The notes beneath the pieces were generated by a model. It had not been told where the DNA came from. It was given only the letters and a program-made list of their open reading frames with translations, and searched no databases. From NCBI GenBank assembly GCA_030390025.1, contig JASTWF010000333.1, forward strand, positions 186,001 to 250,000: 64,000 nucleotides of DNA, read 5' to 3'. The stretch comes from Squalus acanthias (taxonomy: Eukaryota). Numbering within the stretch: the first letter of the stretch is position 1; each line of letters begins with the position of its first letter. The position numbers and the translations under genes were made by a program. Shown piece by piece: positions 1-64,000 of this stretch.

Positions 1-207
1 TGGAGAGCAACCTTCCAAACGCAAGGGAATATGAGCAGCGCTGCCGCTAAGCTGCGCAGCTGCATGGCCACGCAGCGGTCTGGAGGTCCCGCGCAGGTCG
101 CTCACTGGCTTTTAAATGGGAGTAACCGCACGTGCATGAATATTTGAATGGGTTGCGCAGCCACTTAAAGGGACGGCGCATCCCCCAAAAAATTAAAGGG
201 AACATTG
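1..207. mobile_element. Right end of a non-autonomous DNA transposon (hAT-like)
   Basis: GC-rich tract ending in TTAAAGGGAACATTG, resembling the CAATGTTCCCTCTAA-type TIR of vertebrate hAT-like MITEs. The other end is outside the window. Confidence 0.4.
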
Positions 208-803
208 AATACAAGCCAAGTTTATGCAACCTGTTCTCATAGCTTAACCCTTTATTAAATCCTTAAATTCTGCAGAAGCAACCATTGCCCATTATTGTGA
301 TATCACACTTGACATCTCACAGCAGCTGCCTGCCTGAAACATGGAGCTGTTTCTTATCCTGAAAGATGCAATCCTTGTGGGCAGGTGCTCTGGGAGCAAA
401 ATATGTGCAATCACTTTGAATTAGGCTATTTGAAAGCTCGCTGTACAGTAGAAATCATGTTGAACTTACTGTTTGATGCTGTGCTGTCTGACTAAACAAC
501 ATAAGAACTTTCATCTGAATCATGCAATGTAAAGCTTAGATGATGCTTGAAAAACCCGCTGCAGTTTTCTGAAAGGAGCCAAAGGCAATGAAGCTCAATC
601 CTAGTCTATCCTTTGCATATATTGACAGATTCAATATTTTTTTAAGCTTATTCCAAAGGTGAAGCATTGTCTCTACATTCATCTTGTTCCTTCTGATTGC
701 CTATTGATGTGTTGGTAAAATACCTAATCCTGGAATAGAACACATCTTCCATCTCTCTGTCATGTGTGCATCCAGTCATGAAGATCCTCTTATTAGAATG
801 AAA

Positions 804-901
804 ATGAGAAGTCGCACAACACCAGGTTATAATCCAACAGATTTATTTAAAATTACAAGCTTTCGGAGCTATCGCCCCTTCGTCAGGTAAAGTTACAATG
901 A
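804..901 (-). mobile_element. ~100 bp Penelope-like pLTR fragment with 14-bp flanking direct repeat
   Basis: Flanked by TTATTAGAATGAAA at 790-803 and 902-915. The minus strand carries a hammerhead core followed by a PLE-type 3' end. Confidence 0.7.
853..890 (-). ncRNA. Minimal type I hammerhead ribozyme motif
   Basis: Minus strand reads TTAC-CTGACGA-A-GGGGC-GATA-GCTCC-GAAA-GC-TT-GTAA: stem I TTAC/GTAA, CUGANGA core, 5-bp stem II, GAAA, palindromic AAGCTT stem III. Confidence 0.7.
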
Positions 902-1988
902 TTATTAGAATGAAACTCAGAGGTGATACTGTATGGTACTTGTAGTAATTGCAAGTAATTAGCTGTAACTGAAGCCTCATAAATTAATTAACCTGTTGTT
1001 TCCTTTTTCGTGCTTGTAATATTTAATGAGTATTATAAACTGCTACTAAGCTAAAGTGCAATGCCATTAAGCAAATACTTAAAGCAATATTCTATCTAGC
1101 TTCCACAGCCAGGGATTGTTTCTGTGCAATTGCATTTACATGAATAGCAACAATACCTGCAAAAAGAAAATCATCAAATAACTATTTGCAGAAAGAAAAC
1201 TGCAGAATGAAAGATGTATTTACAATGACTGATACAAATTAAGTATGGGCCTAATTCAAGATAGGGACCATACAAAAGTATGTACACTGGTAAAGGGTGC
1301 TTGGGTGCGTTGAAAAAAGCACACAAAAGTGCATGGAGGAGGAGGAGGGTGGGTTTGTCTAAGCACATGGCAGGTAAATTGCTACGCTGCAGCAGCTAGC
1401 AGCTCGTTTAGATATAAGGGGTAATTTTATGATCCGTTCTGCCAGAAAATTGTTTTATGCTGGCATTACATATCTGCTGTATGACATTAGTCATTGTGAG
1501 AGCCTGCCTAAGTCATTGTAAAAGAAGATGGCCTCGTATTTATGTAGCATTTTCGTCGGGTTTGTTGCTTAAAATGAGCGGGACCCATTTCTGACAGGTT
1601 TCTGCCCTGTAACAGCTGCAATCTGGAGTCTTTCACATGTGTACTCGCAAAGCTGCTTATTAGCGTGCTGGAGTCCACCTTGATTGAGCTGGACTTGTTC
1701 CACAGCCTGAAGGCTTCTGATATTACCCTGATACCATTGGGAAATGTTTGCACTCACATACAATAAGAGGTTCTGAATATCAGGTATAGGATTCCCTATG
1801 GCATTCCTTTGTATCTGATATTTAACAGAGGTACAGAAAGACCAGTGCAGGATGGTGGAAAAGAGAGTGAGGCAGCAATGGAGGAGACAGTGGTCTACAA
1901 GATATTAGCCCCCGCCAAAGAAGTTACAGGCCATACAAATCCTATAAAGACCATAGTGAGGTATCTGTTTCTCGCCTGAGAAATGGGC

Positions 1989-2532
1989 GGCCAGCAATTC
2001 AAAATCATGGGGAACCTTGGCCGCCCCATTAACACCCAAAGCGTCCCTGATTCAATTTTGAGGTGGGCCTGTAAATAGGCGACCAGCCTGCCCGCCTGAA
2101 ACAGGCGATCTGTTGTTTCAGTATGCAACTGGAGGTCCTACACCTGTAGGATCCTGAGTTCAATTTTCAAGTGCAAATAGGCAGAGCTTGTGTCACGAAC
2201 GCTCCACCCATTTGTACAAGGCGATGGGGCCCTAACCAGCGGTCCTTGAAGGGGTCTGCTGGAGAGTGCTCAAAAAAGCAGGAGTACTGCTCTTGAACTC
2301 CCAAAAAAACACCAGCCTGCTGCTGGCCCATTCACAGCCCTCCCCCTGGGATTGCCCCCAGGCCCTATCTGCTGCCTGGATCTGGCCCTCTGAACCACCT
2401 GTGTCTCTGGGATCCGTGGGCCTTTACGCAGGTGAACTCTCCGCAGTCTGGGAGCCTGGAGGTAAGTTCAGAGATGTTTCGTGGGTCGGAGGCATACTCC
2501 GGAGGTACATCTCCGACCGCAATTTCTAGTCC
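1989..2532. mobile_element. Degenerate Harbinger-type MITE
   Basis: Imperfect TIRs GGCCAGCAATT / AATTTCTAGTCC and a GC-rich body like the other MITEs in the window. Confidence 0.45.
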
Positions 2533-2539
2533 ATTATTT

Positions 2540-3371
2540 TCTCCGTTACCTTTTATTTACTTAAAAGGAAAGTGTGTGAGTGAGTATGGAGCAATGTGTT
2601 TGGGTGATGTGCCTCCCATAGTTGAATAGCTGTCATGGTGTGAGATGTGGGTGTGAGTGTTGGTAGGTAGAAATTGTTGGTGGGTGAGTTATGGGGGTGT
2701 GGTGCTTTGGGCAGTGTGTGAACATTGTGGTACAGATGGTGGTATGTAGCATTTGTTAAAGCATTCACTCACCCTGACCACCTGAGTGAGGCTGTTAAAT
2801 TTCTTCCTGCACTGTGTGCGGGTCCTGGAGACCACAGTGCTGGTTGAGATATGCTGTGCTACCTCCCTTCACATGGTGCAGAAGACTTGCGGTGAGGGCC
2901 CCCTGCCACTTGCCAGGTAGAGCACCACCCTCCGTCTCTCCACAGCGAACACCAACGCCTCCAATGCTTGATCGCAGAATCTGCGGGCTCGCTCCCTGGG
3001 GCGTGGATCTGCCATGAGTGCAGCTGCTTCAGTCCTCCAACTCCTTCTCCTTCTCCTTGTCCTGCTTCTGCTTGCTGAGGCAGCTGCACAGCCAGCAATG
3101 CTGAGAATGAGGTTCTGCAGCATCAATGAACCTCCCCTTTAACACTGAAAAAAGCCTGTGGCAATCACGATTAGACCACACCCGATCTTGGTCCACCCTT
3201 TGGGTGTAACGCCAATGAGCTTGGGCTTTAAGACTTGAATTAGGACTCCAATCATTTTTTTGAGCAGTGAGCACGAATTTCGCGTGCAGTCTACAGCATT
3301 AGCGCCTGGCACTAATTCTTCAACTTTTCTACTGATACCACCCATTCCTGGGCTATAATGAATTTCTAGCC
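2540..3371 (-). mobile_element. PIF/Harbinger transposon remnant (terminus plus Myb gene 5' part)
   Basis: Ends in the TIR-like AATTTCTAGCC at ~3361-3371 and contains a Myb/SANT exon. Confidence 0.65.
2773..3015 (-). pseudogene. Harbinger Myb/SANT-like DNA-binding protein exon 1, one nonsense codon
   Basis: Translates MADPRPRERARRFCDQALEALVFAVERRRVVLY...CTM*REVAQHISTSTVVSRTRTQCRKKFNSLTQVVR, then a GTGAGT donor. Matches the Myb_DNA-bind_5 (NAIF1/MSANTD-like) pattern. Confidence 0.75.
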
Positions 3372-3375
3372 TGTA

Positions 3376-3390
3376 GGGTTTTAAGCAGTT

Positions 3391-3421
<31 letters not shown>

Positions 3422-3644
3422 ACTTGTGGTGGCCAAGCGTTCATAGCAACATTGTTTTTTGATCCTTCAGTGTCGGCTCTTCCTATCATTGTGAAGCAGA
3501 ATTCACCAAGCGTGGATTGTTCACCCACTAATAGGAACGTGAGCTGGGCTTAGACCGTTGTGAGACAGGTTAGTTTTACCCAACCGATGATGTGTTGTTG
3601 CAATAGTAATCCTGCTCAGTACGAGAGGAACCGTAGATTCAGAC
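3376..3644 (+). pseudogene. 28S rRNA pseudogene fragment (domain V 3' part to sarcin-ricin loop)
   Basis: Contains GTGTCAGAAAAGTTACCACAGGGATAAC, GTCGGCTCTTCCTATCATTGTGAAGCAGAATTCACCAAGCG and the SRL AGTACGAGAGGAAC. Shows CpG-type substitutions and 1-nt deletions, with no flanking rDNA. Confidence 0.95.
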
Positions 3645-3715
3645 TTCCTGTGCTTCCTGATCTTTGTAAATAAGTTTGGTTTGTAAGTCATTACTGCGTA
3701 CAGCTGTGGCCAGGG

Positions 3716-3789
3716 GCCCTGAATTTCCACAGGGGTCTTCTGCCATAAATTTGGCTGAGGATTGACAGGCCCTTCCAGAAATTCAGGGC
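3716..3789. mobile_element. Very short MITE
   Basis: Perfect 12-bp TIRs GCCCTGAATTTC / GAAATTCAGGGC enclosing ~50 bp. Confidence 0.5.
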
Positions 3790-4399
3790 AAGGGTGTCGG
3801 TGGAAGCAGGCAACTCATTTCCTGGCGCAGATTTCCAGGTGCAGTAATGGTGGGTTTGCATTTAGATCCCTAGCAATGTACTGGGAGTTGCGTCTGTATA
3901 GTATTGTGCACTGCCTTGCAGGAATTGACATCAATCTGTGATTGTGCTCTCTGAAATCAAAATATGAACCATCATCCACCTCATAAATGCTCATCGTTCA
4001 TCAAAAAATACAGAAAAAATTTATGTAACGACATGATGACTAGGACTACTATCACTAGGCATTCTCAGTGCCACTGTCTTAATACCCTTGGGGAATGGAA
4101 GCAATGAAGAATTGGCCATCTTGTTTCGAAATGAAATGTATTGTGCCAATGAGTCACTGATCTAGGATATGGATTTAAATCCATGACCTTTATAAGAACA
4201 GAATTTTTTTTTTAAATCAGCACTCCGTTAAAGCAGTAAAGACACATTTTAATTCATATATTATGGCTAAACTCCAATTGTAAAAAGAAATGCATCTCTT
4301 CACCATGAGGTAAAGCTCACTGCAGCCAAGACAGGCCCATGAGTTTAATTCGAGATAAAATTAAAAATGCAAATTCTGAAAATCTGAAATAGAAACAGT

Positions 4400-9475: not shown

Positions 9476-10160
9476 CTTTTTATTATCTGGTCTTTGCTTT
9501 CATTCATTGCACATATAAAGATGAAGTCACTGGTCAGTGCTAGAACTAATTACTCATTCAGATCAGCTTCTTCAATACTTACTGACCTTTGTTCTGAGTC
9601 TAACACACACTCTGGCTCTGGTGACTCCAGGAACAGTAGGCAGCCATCGTGACTGAACCGAAACAGCAATCAAATTACTGCCAACTGAGCTGACTCCGCG
9701 GGATCAATTTATTTTATTTTCCATTTGATGTGTCTTCATACTGCGCAAACTTTTGACCTTTTTTTTAACTATTTATTTCGAAAACTTAGAAGGCGCAGAA
9801 CAAGGCAAGCATATAAACAACATGGACCGAACAGAACTTCTAAAATAATGAAAAGCCAGATGCTAAGGCAAAGTATGATACAACGCTCCAATTTTTAAAA
9901 AAAAGCACATTTATCGAGCTGAGCATTAACGTAAGGCCTAAAACACACAACTACAAGCAACCAGACAAGGGTACCCCAAAAGGAAGCAAAAAATCCTTTA
10001 GCGCCAAGAAGAGCATCGCAGCATCCAGGCTGCCTCCTCCCAAGGAAGAAGTATTCACAGCAAGCAGGATGTGACTTGTTTGACTGAACCAGACAATCCA
10101 TCCCCAAAAATGGCAGCAGGACAGATGCAAAATCATGTCTTGAACATTTATGAAAACAAT

Positions 10161-18918: not shown

Positions 18919-19083
18919 ATTATCTCTAATGCTCTATAAAGCTTGACTTTAATAGCAGAAGATACAAACCTGAATTGCAAACAAGATATTGCTATGACAA
19001 AAAAAAATTGGTTTAGAGAGTGCTGTAAAAATTGTAATAAATTATCAACATTTTAATAACCCAACATCTTCTGAAACTCTTTG

Positions 19084-19974
19084 GGGGAGAAATTCAGTGT
19101 CGCCCCATTTGGGGCGCAATTATCGGCCGGGCGCAAAGATTAGCGCCTGGTGCTAATTATCGCCACCGACTGCAAACTTGACTTTTATCGCCCCTGGAGG
19201 TGATTGCAGCGCTATATCAGGCGCTTCACACCTGTCTTAAGGCGCAAAGGCCGAGGAGCGAGGCGCTACCTCAGAGCGCTGGCGAAGCTCATGTGATGTC
19301 AGTCAGCAATGGAACACACACACAATGGCGCCGGCCAGTTCTTAAAGGGGAGGGTCGATATTGCTCTCCATCCACACCCTGCTCATTGCAGCCTTGAATC
19401 TCGGCCTGGAGAGACTTGCACATCAAATGTGCTGGAAAGAACAATGGAGAGTACCAGGCAAAGAGCTCAGAGTGCAGCCCCCACAGTCTCTGCTAAATCG
19501 ATACAAGGAATGGCAAATCAAAATGAACCTGCAAAGTGCTGCTCAGTACCCAAAACTCCTTCACACAACGTTGAATCTCTCCAGAAGTCTCTCCCTCTCT
19601 CTCTCAGAATGCGTAGTTCAAAAATGGCACCAACAATAAAAGGCAGGAAGCGGTCACCTTTAAATAGCGCTCCCCCTTTCCCTTCATGACTGCAGAACGC
19701 TCCCCTCAACCTGTCGTTGCTAGCGTCAGGCGGTAAGGCAGGGGGCGCCACTCAATATCCGCTCCGGGGCGATACCGGGGCGTTGCGCACTCGAGTGACG
19801 TCATGATCTGCCGGCGCAGGAGATCGTGGAGGTAGTGTTTAGCGCCGCCGCAAAATGTCTAGTTAATTTCGCGAGCGGCGCAAACTTCGCCGCGCCTGGG
19901 CGCTGGATGCTTTGCGCCCCATTAGCGCCCTTTAAGGCGCTAACGGGAGGCGCAACCAACTGAATTTTTCCCCC
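19084..19974 (+). mobile_element. MITE family B (~890 bp)
   Basis: TIRs GGGGAGAAATTCAG / CTGAATTTTTCCCCC and TSD TTG/TTG. Highly similar copies at 22334, 35350 and 63732. Confidence 0.9.
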
Positions 19975-20653
19975 TTGATGCCTTACAACATGCTCCAAAC
20001 CAGCTGCTATTGACTAAGCTTTCCTCTTTGGGATTGGACAAATCTGCCATCTAAACCTGTAGTCTTACTACAGAAACTCTGGTCAAGTTATACTTCTGAC
20101 GCACTGAGCATAGTGATAATTGAGTTCTGAACATGTGTGCTTGGACACTAATTTGTAAGAAGACAAGAGAAATGCTGCTCGTACCCACTCCTTTATAAAA
20201 TTATGGCCTAGAATTTCGAGTGGGCCGAAATCTGCCGGTGTCACCACGGGTCGAAGTTAACGGCCGCCCGCAAGAATAGCACAGGCAGCACCAGTATTTT
20301 GATGCTGCCTGCTGATTAACATTAGCGCAGCGCAAAACCCGTAGTGTTTTTTCCAGCGGTAGACCCAGCAGGAGGCCCAATGTAGCCCTAGGATCCCTGG
20401 AGCGAGGCAGCATTCTCTTAAATCTAGCCTGTCATTTTCGAAAGCAGTCTCGATCCCTTAAAGGGGAAATGCCTTCAAAAATGAAAAAATAAAAATCATT
20501 TATGAATAGGCAGTCTTTAGCTTTTAGAGCTCAACTACCTTCTGAAAAAAAATAAACATTAAAATAATTCCGAAATGGCAGTCTCCAGCTCTTAAAGCTG
20601 AACTGCCTTCTGCATATAAAAAAAATGTTATAAGTGCTTCAGCACAAACAAAA

Positions 20654-22333: not shown

Positions 22334-23171
22334 GGGGAAAAATTCGGTTGCTTTGTGTCTCCCGTTAGCTCCCTAAGAAGGCGCTAATGGGACGCAAAGC
22401 AACTAGTGCCCGGGTGCTAAACACTACCACCACAATCTCCTGCGCCCGCAGATCGTGACGTCAGTCAAGCGTGCAACGCCCCGCTAGCGCCCCGGACCAG
22501 ATATTGAGTGGCGCCCCTGCCTTACCGCCTACCGCTAGCAACGATGGGTTGAGGGGAGCGTTTTGCAGTCGGGAAGGGACTGGGGGAGCGCTATTTAAAG
22601 GCAACCGCTTCCTGCCTTTTTTTGTCGGCGACATTTTTGCACCACACATTCTGAGCGAGAGAGAGAGACTTCTGGAGAGATTCGACGCTGTGTGAAGGAG
22701 TTTTGATTACTGAGCAGCACTTTGCAGGTTCATTTTGATTTGACCTTCCTTGCATTGATTTAGAAGAGACTTGGGGGCTGCACTCTGAGCTCTTTCCCTG
22801 GGCCTCTCCATTGTTCTATCCAGCAGATTTGATGTACAGGTCTCTCCAGGCAGAGATTCAAGGCTGCAATGAGTAGGGTGTGGATGGAGAGCAAGATCGA
22901 CCCTCCCCTTTAAGAGCTGGCCGGTGCCAGTGTGTCTGTGTTCCATTGCTGACTGACATCACATGAGCTTTGCCAGCGCCCTGGGGTAGCGCCTCGCTCC
23001 TCGGCATTAGCGCCTTAAGAGAGGTGTGTAGCACCTGATTTAGTGCTCCAATCACATCCAGGGGCGATAAAAGCCAAGTTTGCAGTCAGAGGCGATAATT
23101 AGCGCCAGGCGCTAAACTTTGCACCCGGCCGATAACTGTGCCCCAAACGGGGCGATACCGAATTTCTCCGC
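22334..23171 (-). mobile_element. MITE family B, inverted, more diverged
   Basis: Reverse complement of 19084-19974 with an internal deletion. Confidence 0.85.
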
Positions 23172-31369: not shown

Positions 31370-32970
31370 TTTTTTTTTATTCGTTTATGGGATGTGGGAG
31401 TCGGTGGCAAGGCCAGCATTTATTGCCCATCCCTAATTGCCCTTGAGAAGGTGGTGGTGAGCTGCCTTCTTGAACTGCTGCAGTCCATTTGGTGAAGGTA
31501 CTCCCACAGTGCTGTTAGGTAGGGAGTTCCAGGATTTTGACCCAGCGACGATGAAGGATCGGCGATATACTTCTAAGTCAGGATGGTGTGTGACTTGGAG
31601 GGGAACTTGGAGGTGGTGGTGTTCCCATGCGCCTGCTGCCCTTGTCCTTCTAGGTGGAAGAGGTCACGGGTTTGGGAGGTGCTGCCGAAGAAACCTTGGC
31701 GAGTTGCTGCAGTGCATCTTGTAGATGCTAGACACTGCAGTCACGGTACACCGGTGGTGGAGGGAGTGAATGTTTAAGGTGGTGGATGGGGTGCCAATCA
31801 AGCAGGCTGCTTTGTCCTGGATGGTGTCAAGTTTCTTGAGTGTTGTTGGAGCTGCACTCACCCAGGCAAGTGGAGAGTATTCCATCACACTCCTTACTTG
31901 TGCCTTGTAGATGGTGGAAAGGCTTTGGGGAGTCAGGAGGTAAGACACTCGCCACAGAATACCTAGTCTCTGACCTGCTCTTGTTGCCACAGTATTTATG
32001 TGGCTGGTCCAGTTAAGTTTCTAGTCAATGGTGACCCCCAGGATGTTGATGGTGGGAGATTCGATGATGGTAATGCCGTTGAATGTCATGGGGCGATGGT
32101 TAGACTCTCGCTTGTTGGAGATAGTCATTGCCTGGCACTTCTGTGGCGCAAATGTTACCTGCCACTTATCAGCCCAAGCCTGAACGTCGTCCAGGTCTTG
32201 TTGCATGCGGGCATGGACTGCTTCATTATCTGAGGAGCTGTGAATGGCGCTGAACGCTGTGCAGTCATCAGCGAACATCCTCATTTCTGACCTTATGATG
32301 GAGGGAAGTTCATTGATGAAGCAGCTGAAGATGGTTGGGCCTAGGACACTGCCCTGAGGAACTACTGCAGTGATGTCCTGGGGCTGTGATGATTGACCTT
32401 TAACCACCGCAACCATCTTCCTTTGTGCTAGGTATGACTCCAGCGAGTGGAATGTTTTGCCCCCGATTCCCATTGACTTCAGTTTTACTAGGGTTCCTTG
32501 ATGCCACACTCGGTCAAATGCTGCCTTGATGTCAAGGGCAGTCACTCTCACCTCATCTCTGGAATTCAGCTCCTTTGTCCATGTTTGGACCAAGGCTTTA
32601 ATGAGGTCGGGAGCTGAGTGGTCTTGGCGGAACCCAAACTGGGCATCAGTGAGCAGGTTATTGGTGAGTAAGTGCCTGCTTGATAGCACTGTCGATGACA
32701 CCTTCCATCACTTTGCTGATGATTGAGAGTAGACTGATGGGGCGGTAATTGGCTGGATTGGATTTGTCCTGCTTTTTGTGGACAGGACATACCTGGGCAG
32801 TTTTCCACATTGTCGGATAGATGCCAGTGTTGTAGCTGTACTGGAACAGCTTGGCTAGAGGCGCAGCTAGTTCTGGAGCACAAGTCTTCAGCACATTAGC
32901 CGGGATGTTGTCGGTGCCCATAACCTTTGCTGTATCCAGTGCGCTCAGCCGTTTCTTGATATCACGTGGA
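31370..32970 (-). mobile_element. Poly(A)-tailed APE-RT LINE (CR1/L2-group), 5'-truncated
   Basis: RT motifs NYRPISLLS, QFGFR, LDIKAAFDRVWH, VPQGSVLGP, MFADD. The tail is AAGGGCAATTAGGGATGGGCAATAAATGC...GAAT(A)n. Confidence 0.92.
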
Positions 32971-34892: not shown

Positions 34893-35349
34893 TTGGAGCC
34901 CATTCTCTCCCCTGTTGCACCGTTCCTCACTCTTTCCCAGGTCTGAATCTCTTCAACCATGACTCCCAGCACTTGCTCCAACCCATAATGCACCTCCCTT
35001 TTAAGAGGTGCAGGCTAGCTTTAAGCAGTGCAGGCTAGCTTTAACAGGTGTTAGCCTCCCACAATATTGATCCCCCTGCTGATGCGTCTGGCCAATGAAC
35101 AGCATAGTTAGTGCTGGCTGGACTTAGAGATCCTATAAATGAGCAGGCAGCGCGAAGTTGGCGTGTTGCCTGCATTGCAATCAATGGGTGAGTCTTAATC
35201 GTGCATCGCGATCCCCGTGTCCGTTTTCGGTGGCTGATCAATTTAGCCCCCATTACGTCCACAAAGGCAGCCTAAAAAAAAAGCAGCTCTGTTCATCAAT
35301 GTATCTGTTGCTAGCCAGGCTCAATTAAGTATTAGTGATAAAATTCAAA

Positions 35350-36241
35350 GGGGGAAAAATTCAGTTGGTTGCGCCTCCCGTTAGCGCCTTAAGAGGGCGC
35401 TAATGGGGCGCAAAGCATCCAGCGCCCAGGCGCGGCGAAGTTTGCGCCGCTTGCAAAATTAACTAGACATTTTGCGGCGGCGCTAAACACTACCGCCACG
35501 ATCTCCTGCACCGGCAGATCATGACATCAGTCGAGTGCGCAACGCCCCGGTATGGCCCCGGAGTGGATATTTAGTGGCGCCCCCTGCCTTACCGCCTGAC
35601 GTTAGCAACGACAGGTTGAGGGGAGCGTTCTGCAGTCATGAAGGGAAAGGGGGAGCGCTATTTAAAGGTGACCGCTTCCTGCCTTTTATTGTTAGTGCCA
35701 TTTTTGAACTACGCATTCTGAGAGAGAGAGAGAGAGACTTCTGGAGAGTTTCAACGTTGTGTGAAGGAGTTTTGGGTACTGAGCAGCACTTTGCAGGTTC
35801 ATTTTGATTTGCCATTCCTTGTATCGATTTAGCAGAGACTGTGGGGGCTGCACTCCGAGCTCTTTGCCTGGTACTCTACATTGTTCTTTCCAGCAGATTT
35901 GATGTGCAGGTCTCTCCAGGCCAGGATTCAAGGCTGCAATGAGCAGGATGTGGATGGAAAGCAAGATCAACCATCCCCTTTAAGAACTCGCCCGTGCCAT
36001 TGTGTGTGTGTTCCATTGCTGACTGACATTACATGAGCTTCGCCAGTGCTCTGAGGTAGCGCCTCGCTCCTCGGCCTTTGCGCCTTAAGACAGGTGTGAA
36101 GCGCCTGATTTAGCGCTCCAATCACCTCCAGGGGCGATAAAAGTCAATTTTGCAGTCGGTGGTGATAATTAGCGCCAGGCGCTAATCTTTGCGCCCGGCC
36201 GATAATTGCGCCCCAAATGGGGCGATACTGAATTTCTCCCC
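35350..36241 (-). mobile_element. MITE family B, inverted
   Basis: Near-identical reverse complement of 19084-19974, with TSD AAA/AAA. Confidence 0.9.
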
Positions 36242-36704
36242 AAAGTGACCCAAATCCGAACCTTTGGGATTAATTGGCAAAAATGCAAGTTTTAGATAAA
36301 TTAGATAATTTGAAATTTGGGTCTGCCTCTATAAATCCAATGCTAGTGATATGGTACAGGAAGCTGAGAAATAAACAGATTCAAAAAATAAATAAATTAC
36401 AAATAAATAAGTACACCAAGTTGGGGAATTGTTTATTTGTGTACATGGACTATTAATGTCAACATTCCACCATTAGTTCGCCCTGGTTATAATGGATACA
36501 AGCTAGAGCCATAGCAACAGAGTCAAATGTAGATGTTTTAATGGGTTACTTATCCTGCATTCTGCTATGGGCACAGGCATTCAATCCATCTGACTGTAGT
36601 TGGTGAGTAAACATCAATTTCCCCAGTAGGCAACTGGTAGAGTGTACATCTATTTTTCCATGTGATGCTGGCAGGCTGATTGGTTTGGAAAGTGGAAGGT
36701 CTAG

Positions 36705-38662: not shown

Positions 38663-39638
38663 TACAAATATACCTACCCAGTTAAAAGGGTGGTGTGGAT
38701 TAAGACCAGCTTCTAACCAGCATAAAAGGGTCAATTAAATGGGCTGCAATTATGGCTGATAGCTGCTGTGCTTCATTGTGAACCGTTGCCTGATCTACTT
38801 GCAATGGCTTCTCAAAAGAGATAGAAAAATTGGCATATGCAGATTTAGACAACTGCTGTTGCAATCTCTGCTTCAAGTTACCACCAGCTAGAAAATGACA
38901 TCCGTAAATCACACCAGTGCTTAGTTTAGTGGTATGATTAAACAAATCACCAGTTATTTGCCTGCAGAGCTGATTAACCAACAGTGATAACTATTCCATC
39001 CCAAGTGACAACTATTTAGCCAACCATGACTAGTATTCACATCCAAGGATAAAATTAGAAAGAAAATGTCTCTCTTGATATAATGTGAGATGCACATGAT
39101 TATACCAGACAATCCCTTGATTCACCGCTGAGCTTGAATCACTGCTTCCTCCCATCACACTTTGTCCTTAATTCTTCTTCAGCCGGGAAAGGGCAGCTGC
39201 CTGAACTGTGCTGTTCTCCACATATTCACCAATACCTTTCTATGATTAACTAACATAGGTGCCCTGCTCCTCCCCCAAGAATGGGTATTTTGCTTGCATA
39301 TGGTCTCCATCTAAGAGTTTAGCCAAGAACTAGCCAAAGTGACACAGATTTCAATTTCGGTCAAGGCCGGGATTCAATTGCTAGCATTGGATTTGAAATT
39401 AGGACAGGAACTGGACCATTAACTGTCCTTTAATATAATCAATCACATCGTCTTAAATCATACAGCTGAATCTGCAACTGCTTTAGGCTCTGAACTGAAG
39501 CTGGCCAGAACAACAATAATGAGAACACAATACGATAAGTATGGCTGGTTAAAAATAAATGTAGTTGATGATTGTAATTTAGATCCACAGAGCTTGTTGA
39601 CAGGAACTCCTTTCACATTTCCTACAATTAAAAAAAAA

Positions 39639-40257
39639 TTTTTTTTATTCGTTTATGGGATGTGGGCGTCACTGGCAAGGCCAGCATTTATTGCCCATCC
39701 ATAATTGCCCTTGAGAAGCTGGCGGTGAGCCGGCTTCTTGAACCGCTGCAGTCCGTGTGGTGAAGGTACTCCCACAGTGCTGTTAGGTAGGGAGTTCCAG
39801 GATTTTGGCCCAGCGACAATGAAGGATCAGCAATATACTTCTAAGTCAGGATGGTGTGTGACTTGGAGGGGAACTTAGAGGTGGTGGTGTTCCCATGCGC
39901 CTGCTGCCCTTGTCCTTCTAGGTGGAAGACATCGCGGGTGGGAGGTGCTGCTGAAGAAGCCTTGGCGAGTTGCTGCAGTGCATCTTGTAGATGGTACACA
40001 CTGCAGCCACGGTACGCCGGTGGTGGAGGGAGTGAATGTTTAAGGTGGTGGATGGGGTGCCAATCAAGCGGGCTGCTTTGTCCTGGATGGTGTCGAGCTT
40101 CTTGACTGTTGTTGGAGCTGCACTCATCCAGACAAGTGGAGAGTATTCCATCACACTCCTTACTTGTGCCTTGTAGATGGTGGAAAGGCTTTTGGGAGTC
40201 AGGAGGTGAGACACTCGCCGCAGAATACCCAGCCTCTGACCTGCTCTTGTTGCCACA
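39639..40257 (-). mobile_element. Poly(A)-tailed APE-RT LINE 3' fragment
   Basis: Nearly identical to 31370-31990. Confidence 0.9.
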
Positions 40258-40595
40258 GGGGAGGGGATTCATCAACTATATTGATGCTAATGATATGCCA
40301 TCACTTTTTTGGAATTGAGCATTGTTATAATAATTATGTGCTTCTAAGGGACAATTTTGTCAAGCGACTAAATGAGGGTACGGTTGACAATTAAGAAGTG
40401 TGTTGCAAGTGGTGTAGGAGAGGTGAAGTGTTAGACGTGGGGATGTGAGGATGTTCAGGTGAGGAAGGGGTTTTGGAGTTGTGCAAGGCAGCTGTTGTGT
40501 GTTAGTGGAGCTGTGTAGTCATAGTTCAGAATAGGATGTTGGAGGCGCTCTTAACCAGAGAACATTGCGAAGGGGTGGTTGTGGAAGTGTTGCTT

Positions 40596-46236: not shown

Positions 46237-46545
46237 GGGAACGGTAGCATAGTGGTAATGTCACTGGGCTAGTAATCCTAGAGGCTTGGACTAATGATCC
46301 AAAGACGTGAGTTCAAATCCCACCATGGCAGCTGGGGAATTTAAATTCAGTTAGTTAAATAAATCTGGAATAAAAAACTAGTATCAGTAATGGTGATCAT
46401 GAAACTATCGGATTGTTGTTAAAAACCCATCTGGTTCACTAATGCCCTTTAGGGAAGGAAATCTGCCGTCCTTATATGTGACTCCAGACCCACAGCAATG
46501 TACAGCCCTCTGAAATGGCCTAGCAAGCCACTCAGTTGTACCAAA
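46237..46545 (+). mobile_element. tRNA-derived SINE head plus conserved central domain (MetaSINE-like), continuous with the downstream LINE
   Basis: A box TAGCATAGTGG (46245-46255), B box GTTCAAATCC (46311-46320), then AAAACCCATCTGGTTCACTAATG.CCTTTAGGGAAGGAAATCTGCC. No SINE tail or poly(A) before the LINE. Confidence 0.75.
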
Positions 46546-48320
46546 CTGCTACAATAATAAGAATGAAACCGGACGGACCACCCGACATCGACCTCGGCAC
46601 CGGCTGCGGACATGGCAACAGCCCAGTCGACCCTGCAAGGTCCTCCTCACCAACATCTGGGGACTTGTGCCAAAATTGGGAGAGCTGTCCCACAGACTAG
46701 TCAAGCAACAGCCTGACAGAATCATAGCTTTCAGCCAATGTCCCAAACTCCTCCATCACCACCGGCAGGACGCACCAACCAGGGGTGGCGGTACAGTGAT
46801 ATACAGTCAGGAAGGAGTAGCCCTGGGAGTCCTCAACATTGACTCCAGACCCCATGAAGTCTCATGGCTTCTGGGTAAGGAAACCTCCTGCTGATTATCA
46901 CCTAGTGCCCTCCCTCAGCTGATGAATCAGTACTCCTCCATGTTGAACACCACTTGGAAGAAGCACTGAGAGTAGTAAGGGCACAGAATGTACTCTTCAA
47001 CGTCCATCACCAAGAGTGGCTCGGTAGCACCACTACTGGCCGAGTCCTGAAGGACATAGCTGCCAGTTTGGGCCTGCGACAGGTGGTGAGAGAACCAACA
47101 CGAGGGGAAAAACCTACTTGACCTCGTCCTCACCAATCTACCTGTTGCAGATGCATGACAGTATTGGTAGCAGTCATTGTGGAGATAAAGTCCCGCCTTC
47201 ACATTGAGGATACCCTCCATTGTGTTGTGTGGCACTACCACCGTGCGAAATGGGGTAGATTCAGAACAGATCTAGCAGCTCAAAACTGGGCATCAAAGAG
47301 GTGCTGTTGGCCATCAGCAGCAGAAGAATTGTATTCCACCACAATCTGTAAACCTCATGGCCCGGCATATCCCTCACTCTACCATTACCATTACCATTAA
47401 GCCAGGGGACCAACCCTGGTTCAATAAGGAGTGTAGAAGAGCATGCCAGGGGCAGCACCAGGCTTACCTAAAAAAAATGAGGTGCCAACCTGGGAAAGCT
47501 GGACCACATAGCATACTAAAAAGCGGAAGCAGCATGCTATAGACAGAGCTAAGCGATCCCACAATCAATGGATCAGATCAAAGCTCTGCAGTCCCGCCAC
47601 ATCCAGTCGTGAATGGTGGTGGACCATTAAACAACTAACAGGAGGAGGAGGCTCCAAGAATATCCCCATCCTCAATGATGGTGGAGCCCAGCACGTGAGC
47701 GCAAAAGACAAGGCTGAAGCGTTTGCAGCCAGAAGTGCCGAGTGGATGATCCATATCAGCCTACTCCTGAGGTCCCCACCATCACAGAAGCCAGTCTTCA
47801 GCCAATTCGATTAACTCTACGTGATATCAAGAAACAGCTGAGCGCACTGGATACAGCAAAGGCTATGGGCCCTGACAACATCCCGGCTCTTGTGCTCTAG
47901 AACTAGCCGCACCTCTAGCCAAGCTGTTCCAGTATAGCTACAACACTGGCATCTATCCAACAATGTGGAAAACTGCCCAGGTATGTCCTGTCCACAAAAA
48001 GCAGGACAAATCCAATCCAGCCTATCAGTCTACTCTCACTCATCAGCAAAGTGATGGAAGGTGTCATCCACAGTGCTATGAAGCGGCACCTGCTCACTGA
48101 TGCCCAGTTTGGGTTCCGCCAGGACCACTCGGCTCCCAACCTCATTACAGCCTTGGTAAAAACATGGACAAAGGAGCTGAATTCCAGAGGTGAGGTGAGA
48201 GTGACTGCCTTGACGTCAAGGCAGCATTTGACCGAGTGTGGCATCAAGGAGCCCTAGTAAAACTGAAGTCAATGGGAATCGGGGGGAAAACTCTCCACTG
48301 GCTGGAATCATACCTAGCAC
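46546..48320 (+). mobile_element. APE-RT LINE 5' two-thirds (same family as 31370-32970), frameshifted
   Basis: APE N-terminus CKVLLTNIWGLVPKLGEL...QPD, RGGG, LDLVLTN, followed by PWFN, GPDNIP and QFGFR. 47820-48320 matches the reverse complement of 32420-32970. Confidence 0.9.
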
Positions 48321-51070
48321 GTAGATGGTGGACAGGCTTTGAGCGATCAGGAGATGAACCACTCGTCACAGAGCATCCAGCCTCTGCCTTGCACTAGTAG
48401 CCATGGTGTTGATATGTCTGGGTCAGTTTATACTCTGGTCAATGGTGATCCCCCGCCTCCAATGTGCTGTTGGTTGGGGACATGGCGATGGTGATGCCAT
48501 TAAAGGTCAAGAGGAGATGGCTAGGCTTCCTCTCGTTCAAAATGGTCACTACCTGGAACTTAGGTGGCGTGAATATTACCTGCCATTTGTCAGCCCAAGT
48601 CTGAATATAATTCAGGTCCTGTTGTTGGCTGGTGTGGGCTGCTTCATTATCAGAGAACATAAGAAATAGGAGCAGGAGTAGGCCATACATCCTCTCGAGC
48701 CTGCTCCGCCATTTAATAAGATCATGGCTGATCTTTTACCTCAACTCTACTTTCCTACCCTATCCCCATATCCCTTGTTTCCCTTAGAAAGGTTGTGAAT
48801 GGAGCTAGGCACTGTGCAATCATCAGCAAACAACCCCACGCCTGTCCTTCTATCAGAGGGGTCATTAATGAAGCAGCTGACGATGGTTGGTTCGAGGATA
48901 CTTCCTTGAGGAACTCCTATACTGAACTCCTTCAGTGATGTCCTGAGGCTAGGATGACTGACTTTCAACAACCACCTTCATCTTCCTTTGCATCAGGTAT
49001 AAGTCCAGCTACTGAATGGTTTTCCCTTTGACTCCCATTGACTTCAGTTTTGCTTGAGCACTTTGGTTCCATACTCAACAACAACAACAACAACTTGTAT
49101 TTATATAGTGCCTTTAACGTAGTAAAACGTCCCAAGGCACTGCACAAGAGTATTTTAAGACAAAAAATTTGACCCCGATCCACATAAGGATAAATTAGGG
49201 CAGGTGACGAAAAGCTTGGTCAAAGAGGTAGGTTTTAAGGAGCGTCTTAAAGGAGGAAAGAGAGGTAGCGAGGCGGACAGGTTTAGGGAGGGAATTCCAG
49301 AGCTTAGGACCTAGGCAACAGAAGGCACGGCCACCAAAGGTTGAGCGATTATAATCAGGGATGCTCAGGGGGGCAGAATTAGAGGAGCACAGATATCTCG
49401 GGAGTTTGTGCGGCTGAAGGAGATTACAGAGATAGGGAGGGGCGAGGCCATTAAGGGATTTGAAAACAAGGATGAGAATTTTGAAATCGAGGCGCTGCTT
49501 AACCAGGAGCCAATGTAGGTCAGCGAGCTCAGGGGTGATGGGCGAACGGGACTTGATGCGAGTTCGGACACGGGCAGCCGAGTTTTGGATGACCTCAAGT
49601 TTACGTAGGGTGGAATGTAGGAGGCCAGCCAGGAGTGCGTTGGAATAGTCAAGTTTAGAGTTAACAAAAGCATGGACTCAGTCGAATGCTACCTTGATGT
49701 TGAGGGCACCCTTCCTCTGGCATTCGGCTCTTGTGTCCCTGTCTTTATGAAGGCTCTGATGAGGTCTCGAGATAACCGGTTCTGGCAGAAACCAAACTAA
49801 GAATTGATGACCGGATTATTGGTGAGTAGGCTTTGCCTGATGGCACGATTGATGACTCCTTCCATCACTTTACTGATGATTAGGAGGAGGCTGATAGGGC
49901 AGTAATTAGGCACCATCAGCACGTCCCCAGCCATCAACACCTTGGGGGGGTCACCATTGACCAGAAAATTAACTGAACCAGCCATATCAACACCATGGCT
50001 ACTAGAGCAAGGCAGAGGCTGGATGCTCTGTGGCAAGTGGTTCATCTCCTAATCCCTCAAAGCCTGTCCACTATCTGCAAGGGTCAAGTCAGGAGTGTGA
50101 TCGAATGCTCATCATACACCTGGATGGATGCACCTGCAACAACACTCAAGTAGCTCAACACCATCCAGTGTTAGGTTTGTGGATAGGACATACCTGGGCA
50201 ATTTTCCACATTGTCAAGTAGATGCCAGTGTCATAGCTGTACTGGAACAGCTAGGCTAGAGAAGCGACTAGGTCTGGTGCATAGATCTTTAGCACTACAG
50301 CCAGGATGTTGTCAGGGCCCATAGCCTTTGCGGTGTCCAATGCACTCAGCCGCTTCATAACGTCATGTGGAGTGAACTGAATTGATTGATCATTGGTATC
50401 TATGATGGTGGGGACCTCAGGAGAAGGCCAAGTAGGATCATCCACTTGACACTTTGACTGAAAACATTTGCAAAAACTTCAGCCTTGTTTCTTGCAGCCA
50501 GCTGCTGGGTTCCACCATAGCTGAGGTTGGGGATGTTCAAGGAGCAGAATCTCCTGTCAGTTGCCTAGTTGTCCACCAACGCTCTCAACTGAATGTTGTA
50601 GGTCTACAGAGCTTTGCTCTGATCCATTGGTTGTGGGACAGCACAGCTGAATCTGCTGTTTTAGGTGTTTAACTTTACTAGGTTCGTACCTCATTCTAAG
50701 GTACGCCTGGTGCTACTCCTCGCAAGCCCGGCTACACTACACATTGAACCAGGGTTGGTCTCCTGGCTTGATAGTTTTCAAGGAGTGAGGGATGTGCCAT
50801 AAGGTTGCAGATTGTGATAGTACATAATTCTGCTCCTAATGATGATCCACAGTGCTTCGTAGATTCCCAGTTTTGAGCTGCTAGATCTGTCCTTAGTCTG
50901 TCCCATTTAGGACGGTGGTAGTGCCACACTACCAGATGGAGGATGCCTTCATGGTGGAAATGTGACTTTGTTTTCACAAGGACTGTGCTGTGTTTTCACA
51001 ATTTCTGTTAAGGCTATCATGGACAAACATGTTTGCGACAGGTATCTTGGTGAGGCTGACGTCAAGAAGG
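48321..51070 (-). mobile_element. Older diverged copy of a related APE-RT LINE, with nested CR1/L2 and an inverted segment
   Basis: VPQGSILEP, LFADDC and AMGPDNI on the minus strand. A CR1 tail lies at 48656-48790, an L2 at 49077-49675 and a plus-strand piece at 49911-50168. Confidence 0.8.
49077..49675 (-). mobile_element. Young L2 3' fragment
   Basis: (AAC)n tail. Near-identical to 6505-7105. Confidence 0.9.
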
Positions 51071-51880
51071 TCATAGAATCATAGAATCATAGAAATTTAC
51101 AGCACAGAAGGAGGCCATTTGGCCCATCTTGTCCGTGCCGGCCGACAAAGCGCTATCCACCCTAATCACACTTTCCAGCACTTGGTCCATAGCCTTGTAG
51201 GTTATGGCACTTCAAGTGCATATCCAAGTACTTTTTAAATATGATGAGGTTTTCTGCCTCTACCACCCTTTCAGGCAGTGATTTCCAGACCCCCACCACC
51301 CTCTGAATGAAAAAAAATTCTCCTCAAATCCCATCTAAACCTCCAACCAATTACTTTAAATCTATGCCCCCTGGTTATTGAACCTTCTGCTAAGGAGAAT
51401 AGGTCCTTCTTATCCATTCTATCTAGGCCCCTCATAATTTTATACACCTCAATTAGGTCTCCTCTGTTCCAAAGAAAACAACCCCAGCCTATCCAATCTT
51501 TCCTCACAGCTAAAATTCCCCAGCCCAGGCAACATCCTCGTAAATCTCCTCTGCACCCTCTCTAGTGCAATCACATCCTTCCTGTAACTGCATGCAGTAC
51601 TCTAGCTGCGGCCTAACTAGTGTTTTATACAGTTCAAGCATAACCTCCCTGATCTTATATTCTATGCCTCAGCTAATAAAGGCAAGTATCCCGTATGCCT
51701 TCTTAACCACCTTATCTACCTGTCCTGCTACCTTCAGGGATCTGTGGACATGCACTCCAAGGTCCCTCTGATCTTCTGCACTTCTCAGTGTCCTACCATT
51801 TATAGTGTATTCCCTTGCTTTGTTAGCCTTCCCTAAATGCATTACCTCACACTTCTCCAGATTGAATTCCATTTGCCTCA
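51071..51880 (-). mobile_element. CR1 LINE 3' fragment
   Basis: (CATAGAAT)n tail and the MEFNLEKCEVMHLG...RDLGV motifs. Confidence 0.9.
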
Positions 51881-52131: not shown

Positions 52132-53560
52132 AGTTGTTTTTCGGACTGGAGGAAGGTTTTTTTTAATTTGTTCATGGGATGTGGGCATCACTGGCAAGGC
52201 CAGCATTTATTGCCCATCCCTAATTGCCCTTGAGAAGGTGGTGATGAGCCGCCTTCTTGAACCGCTGCAGTCCGTGTGGTGAAGGTACTCCCACAGTGCT
52301 GTTAGGGAGGGAGTTCCAGGATTTTGACCCAGCGACGATGAAGGATCGGCGATATACTTCCAAGTCAGGATGGTGTGTGACTTGGAGGGGAACTTGGAGG
52401 TGGTGGTGTTCCCATGCGCCTGCTGCCCTTGTCCTTCTAGGTGGTGAGGTCGTTGGTTTGGGAGGTGCTGCCAAAGGAGCCTTGGCGAGTTGCTGCAGTG
52501 CATCTTGTAGGTGGTACACACTGCAGCCACGGTACATCGGTATACAGTGGTGTTCCCCAGGGGTCGGTTCTAGGACCACTGCTTTTCTTGATATATATTA
52601 ATGACTTGGATGTGGGTGTACAGGGCACAATTTCAAAATTTGCAGATGACACAAAATTTGAAAGTATAGTGAACAGTGAGGAGGATAGTGATAGACTTCA
52701 AGTGGACATAGACAGGTTGGTGGAATGGGCAGACACGTGGCAGATGAAATTTAATGCAGAAAAGTGCTAGGTGATACATTTTGGTAGAAAGAATGAAGAG
52801 AGGAAATCTAGACTAAAGGGTACAATCCTAAAGTGGGTGCATGAACAGAGAGACCTAGGAGTATATGTGCACAAATCATTGAAGGTGGCAGGGCAGGTTG
52901 AGACAGCAGTTAAAAAAGCTTACGGGATCCTGGGCTTCATGAATAGAAGTATAGAGTATAACAACGTGGAAATTATGATGAACCTTTATAAAACACTGGT
53001 TTGGCCTCAACTGAAGTATTGTGTCCAATTCTGGGCACCGCACTTTAGGAAGGATGTGAAGGCCTTAGAGAGGGTGCAGAAAAGATTTATGAGAATGATT
53101 CCAGGGATGAGGGACTTCTGTTACATGGATAGACTGGAGATGCTGGGGTTGTTCTCCTTAGAGCAAAGAAGATTGAGAGGAGATTTGATAGAGGTGTTCA
53201 AAATCATGAGGGGTCTGGGCAGAGTAGATAGAGAGAAACTGTTCCCATTGGCAGAAGGGTCGAGAACCAAAGGACACAGATTTAAGGTGATTGGCAGAAG
53301 AACCAAAGGCGACATGAGGAATAACTTTTTTACTCAGTGAGTGGTTAGGATCTGGAATGCAATGCCTGAAAGGGTGGTGGAAGCAGACTCAATCACGGCT
53401 TTCAAAAAGGAATTGGATAAGCATCTGAAGGAAAAAATTTGCAGGGCTACAGGGAAAGGGCGGGGAATGGGACTAGCTGAAGTGCTCTTGCAGAGAGCTG
53501 GCACAGGCTCGATGGGCCGAATGGCCTCCTTCCATGCTGTAACCATTCTATAATTCTATG
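52132..53560 (+). mobile_element. CR1 LINE (RT to 3' end), interrupted near its 5' end
   Basis: SGVPQGSVLGPLLFLIYINDL, KFADDTK and YCVQFWAPH motifs, with a CATTCTATAATTCTATG tail. Confidence 0.92.
52157..52540 (-). mobile_element. Poly(A)-tailed APE-RT LINE 3' end inserted in CR1
   Basis: Matches 31370-31755. The CR1 sequence GGACTGGAGGAAGG|TATACAGTGG is split around it. Confidence 0.88.
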
Positions 53561-60451: not shown

Positions 60452-61325
60452 GAATTAGATAAGTTGAGCGAGTGGGCAAATACATGGCAGATGCAGAATA
60501 ACGTGGATAAATGTGAAGTTATCCACTTCGGTAGGAAAAACAGAAAGGCAGAGTATTATTTAAATGGTGATAGATTGGGAAATGTTGATGCACAAAGGGA
60601 CCTGGGTGTCCTTGTATACCAGTCACTGAAAGCAAACATGCAGGTGCAGCAAGCAGTTAGGAAGGCAAATGGTATGTTGGTCTTCATTACAAGAGGATTT
60701 GAGTACAGGAGCAAGGATGTCTTACTACAGTTATACAGGGCCTTGGTGAGACCACACCTGGAGTACTGTGTGCAGTTTTGGTCTCCTTACCTAAGAAAGG
60801 ATATACTTGCCATAGAGGGAGTGCAGCGAAGGTTCACCAGACTGATTCCTGCGATGGCAGGACTGTCGTATGAGGAGAGATTGGGTCGACTAGGCCTGTA
60901 TTCACTAGAGTTTAGAAGAATGAGAGGGGATCTCATTGAAACGTATAAAATTCTGACAGGGCTAGACAGACTGGAAGCAGGGAGGATGTTTCCCCTGGCT
61001 GGGGGGTCTAGAACGAGGGGTCACAGTCTCAGGATATGGGGTAGGACATTTAGGACTGAGATGAGGAGAAATTTCTTCACTCAGAGGGTGGTGAACCTAT
61101 GGAATTCTCTACCACAGAAGGCTGTGGAGGCCAAGTCACTGAATATATTTAAGAAGGAGATAGATAGATTTCTAGACACAAAAGGCATCAAGGGGTATGG
61201 GGAGAGAGCGGGAATATGGTATTGAGATAGAGGATCAGCCATGATCATATTGAATGGGGGAGCAGGCTCGAAGGGCCGAATGGCCTACTCCTGCTCCTAT
61301 TTTTCTATGTTTCTATGTTTCTATT
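60452..61325 (+). mobile_element. Young CR1 LINE 3' fragment with open reading frame
   Basis: Uninterrupted ORF2 C-terminus to the stop at 61225 (KCEVIHFGRKN, RPHLEYCVQFWSPY) and a (TTTCTATG)n tail. Confidence 0.95.
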
Positions 61326-63490: not shown

Positions 63491-63731
63491 ACTGAGTGGG
63501 GTGCCCCAGAGTTTGGTGTTGGGCCCGTTACTTTTTCTATTTCTATTTCTATTTCACATTAACGACAGGACTCATAGCGGTGTAAATTGGTCAAATGTGC
63601 AACTTATACAAAACTAAGGAGAGAGACTGGAATTAGAGGAGACAGCTCAGACATTACAGCATGAGGCAATTGGGAGGGGGGTGAGTGGTGGCCGGCAGTT
63701 TTAATGATGGGTGCTGCGCAATCGAGTTTCT

Positions 63732-64000
63732 GGGGGAGAAATTCAGTATCACCCCCATTTGGGGCGCAATTATCGGCCGGGCGCAAAGATTAGCCCCTGG
63801 CGCTAATTATCGCCTCCGACTGCAAACTTGGCTTTTATCACCCCTGGAGGTGATTGGAGCGCTAAATCAGGCACTTCACAACTGTCTTAAGGTGCAAAGG
63901 CCGAGGAGTGAGGCGCTACCTCAGAGCGCTGGCGAAGCTCATGTGATATCAGTCAGCAATGGAACACACACACAATGGCGCCGGCCAGTTCTTAAAGTGG
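63732..64000 (+). mobile_element. MITE family B, left part
   Basis: GGGGAGAAATTCAG...CCCCATTTGGGGCGCAATTATCGGCCGGGCGCAAAG matching 19084 onward. Runs off the window. Confidence 0.9.

What the first reader, a model, noticed from the sequence alone, without database searches (positions are those of the whole stretch)
31370..32970. No Pol III terminator (TTTT) on the sense strand of the SINE-headed LINE family
Seen by manual scan: 46237-48320 (+ copy) has no TTTT but about a dozen AAAA runs. The minus-strand copies 31381-32970, 39650-40257 and 52170-52540 have no AAAA on +, meaning no sense TTTT. Together these overlap to cover the element from head to tail. CR1 (e.g. GCAGTTTTGG near 60775) and L2 copies here do have sense T4 runs. 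Established: vertebrate Pol III terminates at four or more Ts. Inference: selection for full-length Pol III read-through, which independently supports the previous finding. Caveats: the sense strand is T-poor, and the older related copy has T4 at ~50461-50476.
Basis: partly seen in the sequence, partly recalled or inferred. Interest (0 to 1): 0.75.

Follow-up and report, generated by a model that had tools for sequence, protein, structure and literature searches.

The report
Shark LINE purged of Pol-III terminators
These are dead copies of a known 3.3-kb shark-and-ray jumping gene (Zenon) that encodes its own copying enzyme, starts with a tRNA-type promoter and almost wholly lacks the T-rich stop signals of RNA polymerase III on its coding strand, so it is likely read by that polymerase, which is thought to make only short non-coding RNAs; no transcript has been tested.

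Summary
Observation confirmed. All four young copies lack sense-strand TTTT, and so does the 3,305-nt family consensus. Zero TTTT alone is weak: P=0.014 in base shuffles, 0.22 in dinucleotide shuffles, 0.11 in codon shuffles. Counting the tested weak human Pol III terminators as well (T3VT, TVT3, T2VT2) makes it strong. The consensus has 1 such site against 6.5 (dinucleotide, P=0.007) and 5.6 (codon, P=0.008), and 39 on the other strand. Observed/expected is 0.18, against 0.71 or more in 65 other LINE ORFs, 0.87 in CR1 and 1.08 in L2. Dead copies regain T-runs with age, which explains the old-copy caveat. The family is elasmobranch Zenon (PMC13343379): tRNA head with A/B boxes, one EN-RT ORF under purifying selection (dN/dS about 0.2), no in-frame AUG, poly-A end. 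That paper never mentions tRNA or Pol III. Best reading (0.6): selection for Pol III read-through. That the protein is made from this RNA is inferred (about 0.45). This scan already noted the family many times, here and in other genomes.

The parts
46237..46332 (+). tRNA-derived head at the element's 5' end; A-box-like motif 46245-46255, B-box-like motif 46309-46320
   Evidence: ARAGORN tRNA-like call 46259-46332; motif positions; 60 of 85 head-to-ORF alignments start in the first 8 nt (sample partly chosen by head queries)
46333..46639 (+). 5' leader shared with the short SINE form (to about 46540), then about 100 nt up to the endonuclease start; no conserved in-frame AUG
   Evidence: likeness to the Deu domain of DeuSINEs is recalled only, not tested
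46640..48320 (+). Decayed 5' part of the single EN-RT ORF (consensus 441-2254), cut at 48320; no sense T4
   Evidence: 88% to consensus; T-run count
31373..32970 (-). 5'-truncated young copy, consensus 1710-3306: RT, ORF end, 3' hairpin, A-tail; no sense T4
   Evidence: 96.8% to consensus; open 228-aa RT stretch; tail fold
39637..40258 (-). 5'-truncated young copy, consensus 2687-3310; no sense T4
   Evidence: 96.6%
52160..52541 (-). 5'-truncated young copy, consensus 2924-3306; no sense T4
   Evidence: 95.8%
48321..51071 (-). Fragments of an older lineage (72-80% to the young consensus), interrupted by an L2 and with one inverted piece (49924-50168, +); 3 sense T4 runs, best explained by decay

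Best explanation
This ORF1-less Zenon LINE is likely transcribed by RNA polymerase III from its tRNA-type A/B-box head, and selection on the active master copies has likely removed the T-rich signals that would stop that polymerase before the 3' tail needed for reverse transcription. Shown: the head at the 5' end, one EN-RT ORF under purifying selection, sense-strand loss of T4, T3 and interrupted T-runs, regain of T-runs in dead copies, and no in-frame AUG. Inferred: initiation at the first G by Pol III, read-through of 3.3 kb to a T-run in flanking DNA, cap-independent non-AUG translation of the same RNA, and retrotransposition without ORF1p. Short head+tail SINE forms use the same promoter and tail.
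For: Terminator-like sites (T4+, T3VT, TVT3, T2VT2; classes from PMC3141230): 1 in the 3.3-kb sense strand, of the weakest class, against 39 antisense and 39/48/20 for the same motif in A/C/G. Nulls: dinucleotide 6.5 (P=0.007), synonymous codon 5.6 (P=0.008), base 9.3 (P=0.0007). Observed/expected 0.18, lowest of 65 control ORFs 0.71, CR1 0.87, L2 1.08, and 0.84 in an invertebrate-type relative with the same T content (L394). T-run spectrum is graded: T1 474/418 expected, T2 76/82, T3 7/16, T4+ 0/3.9. Copies gain T4 from about 0.5 to about 3 per 3.3 kb as identity falls from above 90% to 65-75%, so mutation does make them. Older lineage, 88% identical: 0 sites against 2.8 (P=0.010), dN/dS 0.18-0.22, and old copies also join head to ORF (L357, L310). 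31 of 58 copies chosen by internal queries reach the head, and none shows another shared 5' end. Published Zenon consensuses of five sharks and rays begin with the head and show no T4 in the 400 letters held. Hagfish and coelacanth Zenons show no such head by eye and do have T4 there. First in-frame Met is 249 codons into the ORF. Pol III transcripts of Alu need no ORF1p (PMC2666806 abstract).
Against: No transcript evidence: no raw RNA reads were offered, so start site, strand and polymerase are untested. T4=0 alone is not significant under dinucleotide or codon nulls. The old lineage is not independent: a simulation keeps T4=0 in 64% of runs, and interrupted motifs give only P=0.08. The wider motif set was chosen after the T4 test proved weak. 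Most control ORFs are distant (22-42% identity) and richer in T. Pol III is held to be poorly processive, and autonomous elements are stated to need Pol II (PMC10886601). Pol III RNAs lack an m7G cap (established knowledge), so translation needs an unshown mechanism. The B-box-like motif here departs from the textbook consensus (recalled), though it is canonical in three other species.
Confidence: 0.6

Rival explanations
1. Split labour. Pol III makes the 3.3-kb template RNA, hence the purge, but the protein comes from capped Pol II transcripts that read into a few source copies. Most RNA would then move like a giant SINE.
For: No in-frame AUG and no cap on Pol III RNA. An out-of-frame ATG lies before the ORF in 33 of 54 copies. 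Internally deleted short forms with varied joints move in trans.
Against: Sustained dN/dS of about 0.2 along the headed lineage fits cis use of the protein. No alternative 5' end among 58 copies. The head-ORF structure is kept in five species.
Confidence: 0.15
2. The element is transcribed by Pol II, the head being a relic or a dual promoter. U-runs are avoided for another reason, such as splicing, polyadenylation or U-tract-binding proteins.
For: All characterised LINEs are taken to be Pol II units. TT is depleted overall (ratio 0.71). CR1 also shows a mild T4 deficit in codon shuffles (4 against 8.7, P=0.019).
Against: CR1 and L2 in the same nucleus keep 18 and 20 terminator-like sites, at expectation. 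Copies start just upstream of the A box. The boxes persist while the sequence between them differs among species (read by eye).
Confidence: 0.2
3. No selection on T-runs. A T-poor, C-rich ancestor happened to lack them when a SINE head was joined on, and the state was simply inherited.
For: T is 19.7%. T4=0 has P=0.11-0.22 under tighter nulls. One short control ORF (L244) also has no T4. Old and young lineages share ancestry.
Against: The full motif set is depleted at P of about 0.007 after fixing dinucleotides or codons, and lies far outside 65 controls. L394, with 20% T, has T3 16/16 and T4 3/4 of expectation. dS of 0.38 separates the lineages with no gain.
Confidence: 0.12

Closest known systems
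Elasmobranch Zenon LINEs (SquAca_Zenon-1 to -3, CarCar, RhiTyp, ScyCan, HypSab; Stuart et al. 2026, PMC13343379)
   Same: About 3.3 kb, no ORF1, EN+RT, poly-A end. The first 400 letters of SquAca_Zenon-1 read nearly the same as my consensus (compared by eye).
   Different: Nothing seen in sequence. The paper's main text has 0 mentions of tRNA, polymerase III or start codon, so head, terminator purge and missing AUG are not remarked there.
tRNA-headed DeuSINEs of sharks and coelacanth (SacSINE1, 463 bp; LmeSINE1)
   Same: tRNA head, body and LINE-type tail. Short forms here are about 400-475 nt of head plus tail. Papers give a CR1-4_DR-like or L2-2_CM partner.
   Different: The long form keeps a whole constrained ORF. 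Identity with SacSINE1 or the Deu domain is recalled only; no sequence was available to test.
Invertebrate, hagfish and coelacanth Zenon-type single-ORF LINEs
   Same: About 940-aa single ORFs, 40-44% identical in RT; L394 is 35.5% identical over 858 aa.
   Different: L394 has an in-frame AUG and normal T-runs (its 5' end is missing, so its head is unknown). Hagfish and coelacanth entries show T4 runs and no evident tRNA head in their first 400 letters (the coelacanth entry is low-confidence).
Pol III-promoter TRIMs (Cassandra, Helenus, Ajax; PMC10886601)
   Same: Retroelements with small-RNA-derived Pol III promoters.
   Different: Non-coding, at most about 1.3 kb, LTR type.
R2 retrotransposons (recalled)
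   Same: Single-ORF element whose uncapped RNA is thought to be translated without a normal AUG.
   Different: Co-transcribed by Pol I, released by a ribozyme, site-specific, different endonuclease.

Membership tests
Zenon (CR1 group) | No ORF1; one ORF with APE endonuclease and RT | tested here: met
   One 935-codon frame from the endonuclease start. Pfam RVT_1 on L050. The endonuclease is inferred from similarity to L394, which hits Exo_endo_phos; the L050 frame lacks that part.
Zenon (CR1 group) | Poly-A tail | tested here: met
   68 3' ends listed, mostly ending in a short A run
Zenon (CR1 group) | Sequence match to a named Zenon consensus | tested here: met
   First 400 letters of SquAca_Zenon-1, by motif search and by eye; the rest of each cell is cut
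Zenon (CR1 group) | RT groups with Zenons in a tree | not tested
   No named reference RT sequences were at hand
SINE (SINE2) | tRNA-derived head with A and B boxes at the 5' end | tested here: met
SINE (SINE2) | Short and non-coding | tested here: not met
   3.3 kb, ORF with dN/dS 0.18-0.22
SINE (SINE2) | No internal Pol III terminator | tested here: met
   0 T4 and 1 weak T2VT2 site in 3.3 kb
SINE (SINE2) | Transcribed by Pol III | not testable with these tools
   Only assembled contigs were offered
DeuSINE | Deu domain in the body | tested here: inconclusive
   Resemblance recalled. The defining paper is not held and motif searches of papers and supplements found no Deu sequence.

The most novel reading that the evidence does not exclude
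An autonomous, protein-coding LINE whose whole 3.3-kb RNA is made by Pol III and translated without cap or AUG. It has persisted across sharks and rays by purging Pol III terminators from a coding sequence, and its leader and tail are the source of the shark head+tail SINEs.
Probability: 0.45. Interest if true: 0.88.

Novelty: new variant of a known kind. Interest (0 to 1): 0.7.

Why it matters
The LINE/SINE divide rests on Pol II against Pol III, and Pol III is held to be unable to serve autonomous elements (PMC10886601). A natural Pol III-made mRNA of 3.3 kb would break that rule and need cap-independent, non-AUG translation. It would also link the loss of ORF1 to polymerase choice, as the Alu experiments suggest, and could give a function to a conserved SINE body as a LINE leader. 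The terminator purge makes it directly testable: one synonymous T5 in the ORF should truncate the RNA and stop retrotransposition.

Tried and rejected
T4=0 as a stand-alone statistic: not significant under dinucleotide or codon nulls. Phe codon bias alone: too few codons. DNA search with the old copy returned only young copies; a diagnostic motif was needed to find the old lineage. The T3=0 result for the old lineage (P=0.003) depends on my CpG restoration and is not relied on; the raw consensus has 2 T3 in 993 nt. The start-codon tally used the wrong frame and was redone. The metagenome scan gave only distant LINEs; the scan of viral contigs gave none and the prokaryote-genome scan one stray contig. 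Shared flanks upstream of truncated copies proved to be CR1 pieces, not another 5' UTR. Expression: no RNA holder listed, contigs only. Rfam found no family on the element. Full Zenon consensuses of other species could not be counted because supplement cells are cut at 400 letters. An IRES-like fold before the ORF, proposed in earlier AI notes, was not tested; my single fold of the leader was uninformative.

Full report
1. Observation. The plus copy 46237-48320 has no TTTT and 13 AAAA runs, and sits in the longest TTTT-free stretch of the window (2,571 nt; next 1,099). The three minus copies have no AAAA on +. Together they cover consensus 1-3306. For single copies this is only marginally unusual (P=0.049 and 0.12 in base shuffles).

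2. The family. Searches of the own genome gave many copies. A consensus from 109 alignments is 3,305 nt long and 19.7% T. It has a tRNA-like head with A- and B-box motifs, a leader, one ORF of 935 codons from the endonuclease start (Pfam RVT_1), a 3' hairpin and a short A tail. The head is part of the element. 26 of 29 head hits run on into the ORF and 3 are short head+tail forms. A 22-nt motif at the end of the head occurs 1,842 times exactly (control 0), against 59 for one short-form joint. Of 58 copies chosen by internal queries, 31 reach the head and 12 its first 15 nt, and no other shared 5' end appears. Contigs from four other coded organisms bridge head and ORF-side sequence. The first 400 letters read nearly the same as SquAca_Zenon-1 in the supplement of PMC13343379, so this is the elasmobranch Zenon family. 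That lead came from earlier notes of this scan and I checked it.

3. Is the lack of TTTT more than chance? Alone, barely: 0 against 3.9 (base shuffle, P=0.0135), 1.5 (dinucleotide, P=0.22) and 1.9 (synonymous codon, P=0.11). But the deficit grows with run length: T1 474/418 expected, T2 76/82, T3 7/16, T4+ 0/3.9; A, C and G show no such loss. Human Pol III also stops at interrupted runs, T3VT2/T2VT3 > T3VT/TVT3 > T2VT2 (PMC3141230 passages). Counting these, the sense strand has one site, of the weakest class, against 39 on the other strand and 39, 48 and 20 for the same motif in A, C and G. Null means are 6.5 (dinucleotide, P=0.007), 5.6 (codon, P=0.008) and 9.3 (base, P=0.0007). This wider count was chosen after the T4 test proved weak; the same window statistic was first run, before I read that paper.

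Controls. Of 80 metagenome LINE loci, 65 with ORFs of 400 aa or more were used and 15 dropped. Their observed/expected ratio under codon shuffling has median 1.0 and minimum 0.71, against 0.18 here. CR1 gives 0.87, L2 1.08, and L394, a relative with 20% T and an in-frame AUG, 0.84. Most controls are distant and richer in T; one short one (L244) also lacks T4, and CR1 has a mild T4 deficit under codon shuffling. No RTE control was built. Phe is 15 TTC to 3 TTT, about 6 expected.

4. Time depth. Copies gain T4 with age: about 0.5 per 3.3 kb above 85% identity and about 3 at 65-75%. That explains the T4s at 50461-50476, where the consensus has none. A diagnostic motif found 54 copies of an older lineage, of which 53 were fetched. 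Its consensus, reliable only for positions 1818-3305, is 88% identical to the young one, with dS 0.38, dN 0.069 and dN/dS 0.18-0.22. It has no T4 and 0 terminator-like sites against 2.8 (P=0.010, 993 nt). This is not independent evidence: random change of that size keeps T4=0 in 64% of runs. Old copies at 70-76% identity also join head to ORF (L357, L310). In the published set, five shark and ray Zenons start with the head and show no TTTT in the 400 letters held, while the hagfish and coelacanth Zenons show TTTT runs and no evident head (read by eye).

5. Mechanism. Shown: promoter-like head at the 5' end, constrained ORF, strand-specific purge of terminator motifs, and no in-frame AUG. The first Met is 249 codons in; an upstream in-frame ATG is present in 9 of 54 copies and an out-of-frame one in 33 of 54. 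Inferred: Pol III starts at the first G and must cross 3.3 kb, because a truncated RNA would lack the tail that the RT recognises; the RNA is translated without cap or AUG; ORF1p is dispensable, as for Pol III-made Alu RNA (PMC2666806, abstract only). I put 0.6 on Pol III read-through as the cause of the purge and about 0.45 on the protein coming from that same RNA. The rivals are split Pol III/Pol II labour, Pol II with another reason to avoid U-runs, and inheritance without selection. Nothing here shows a transcript.

6. Literature. PMC13343379 (abstract, passages, first 400 letters of supplement rows) describes the family but has no mention of tRNA or polymerase III. PMC10886601 and PMC5786205 (passages) state that LINEs use Pol II. 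PMC5499810 (parts 1-3 of 6; no supplement held), PMC3747384, PMC4824008, PMC2746220, PMC10468316, PMC7245038 and PMC4494074 (passages) cover shark and Deu SINEs and do not describe a headed LINE in what I saw. Searches listed no paper on a Pol III-transcribed autonomous LINE. Earlier AI notes of this scan reach the same reading on other copies; they are not independent evidence.

7. Verdict. A real feature. The family is known; the promoter and terminator anatomy is unremarked in the papers searched. The statistical case is good once weak terminators are counted, and the polymerase is untested. Interest 0.7.

Noticed in passing
window 3355-3950: Fragment of the 3' end of eukaryotic large-subunit rRNA (Rfam RF02543), probably a dispersed pseudogene piece.
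   Followed up: no
3' tails of 68 copies, e.g. L099, L103, L109, window 39637: 12 of 68 tails carry a T4+ run in or just behind the A tail and 7 a T3, in graded lengths. Probably slippage after insertion, but a captured terminator is not excluded.
   Followed up: partly
L287, L294, L307, L341, L347, L359, L371, L148, L395-L406: Short head+tail forms have varied joints (head end about 325-352, tail start about 3168-3247), suggesting repeated internal deletion from the long element. In four other organisms the short form dominates the contigs.
   Followed up: partly
L069, L090, L128: A CR1 3' end directly abuts the Zenon 5' break at three different positions; likely later CR1 insertions.
   Followed up: partly
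window 48321-51071: The old-lineage copy is rearranged: collinear minus-strand pieces, an L2 insertion at 49076-49676 and an inverted duplicate-like piece at 49924-50168.
   Followed up: no
L394 (JARHYK010000017.1): An animal-type Zenon-like LINE contig lies in a record titled as a Clostridia MAG, probably host contamination.
   Followed up: no
window 19081-19976, 22413-23169, 35348-36244, 63731-64000: A young repeat family of about 900 bp (88-96% alike), not classified; a second of 630-770 bp at 10158, 13842, 18188, 30050, 37845 and 45454.
   Followed up: no
   Followed up: partly
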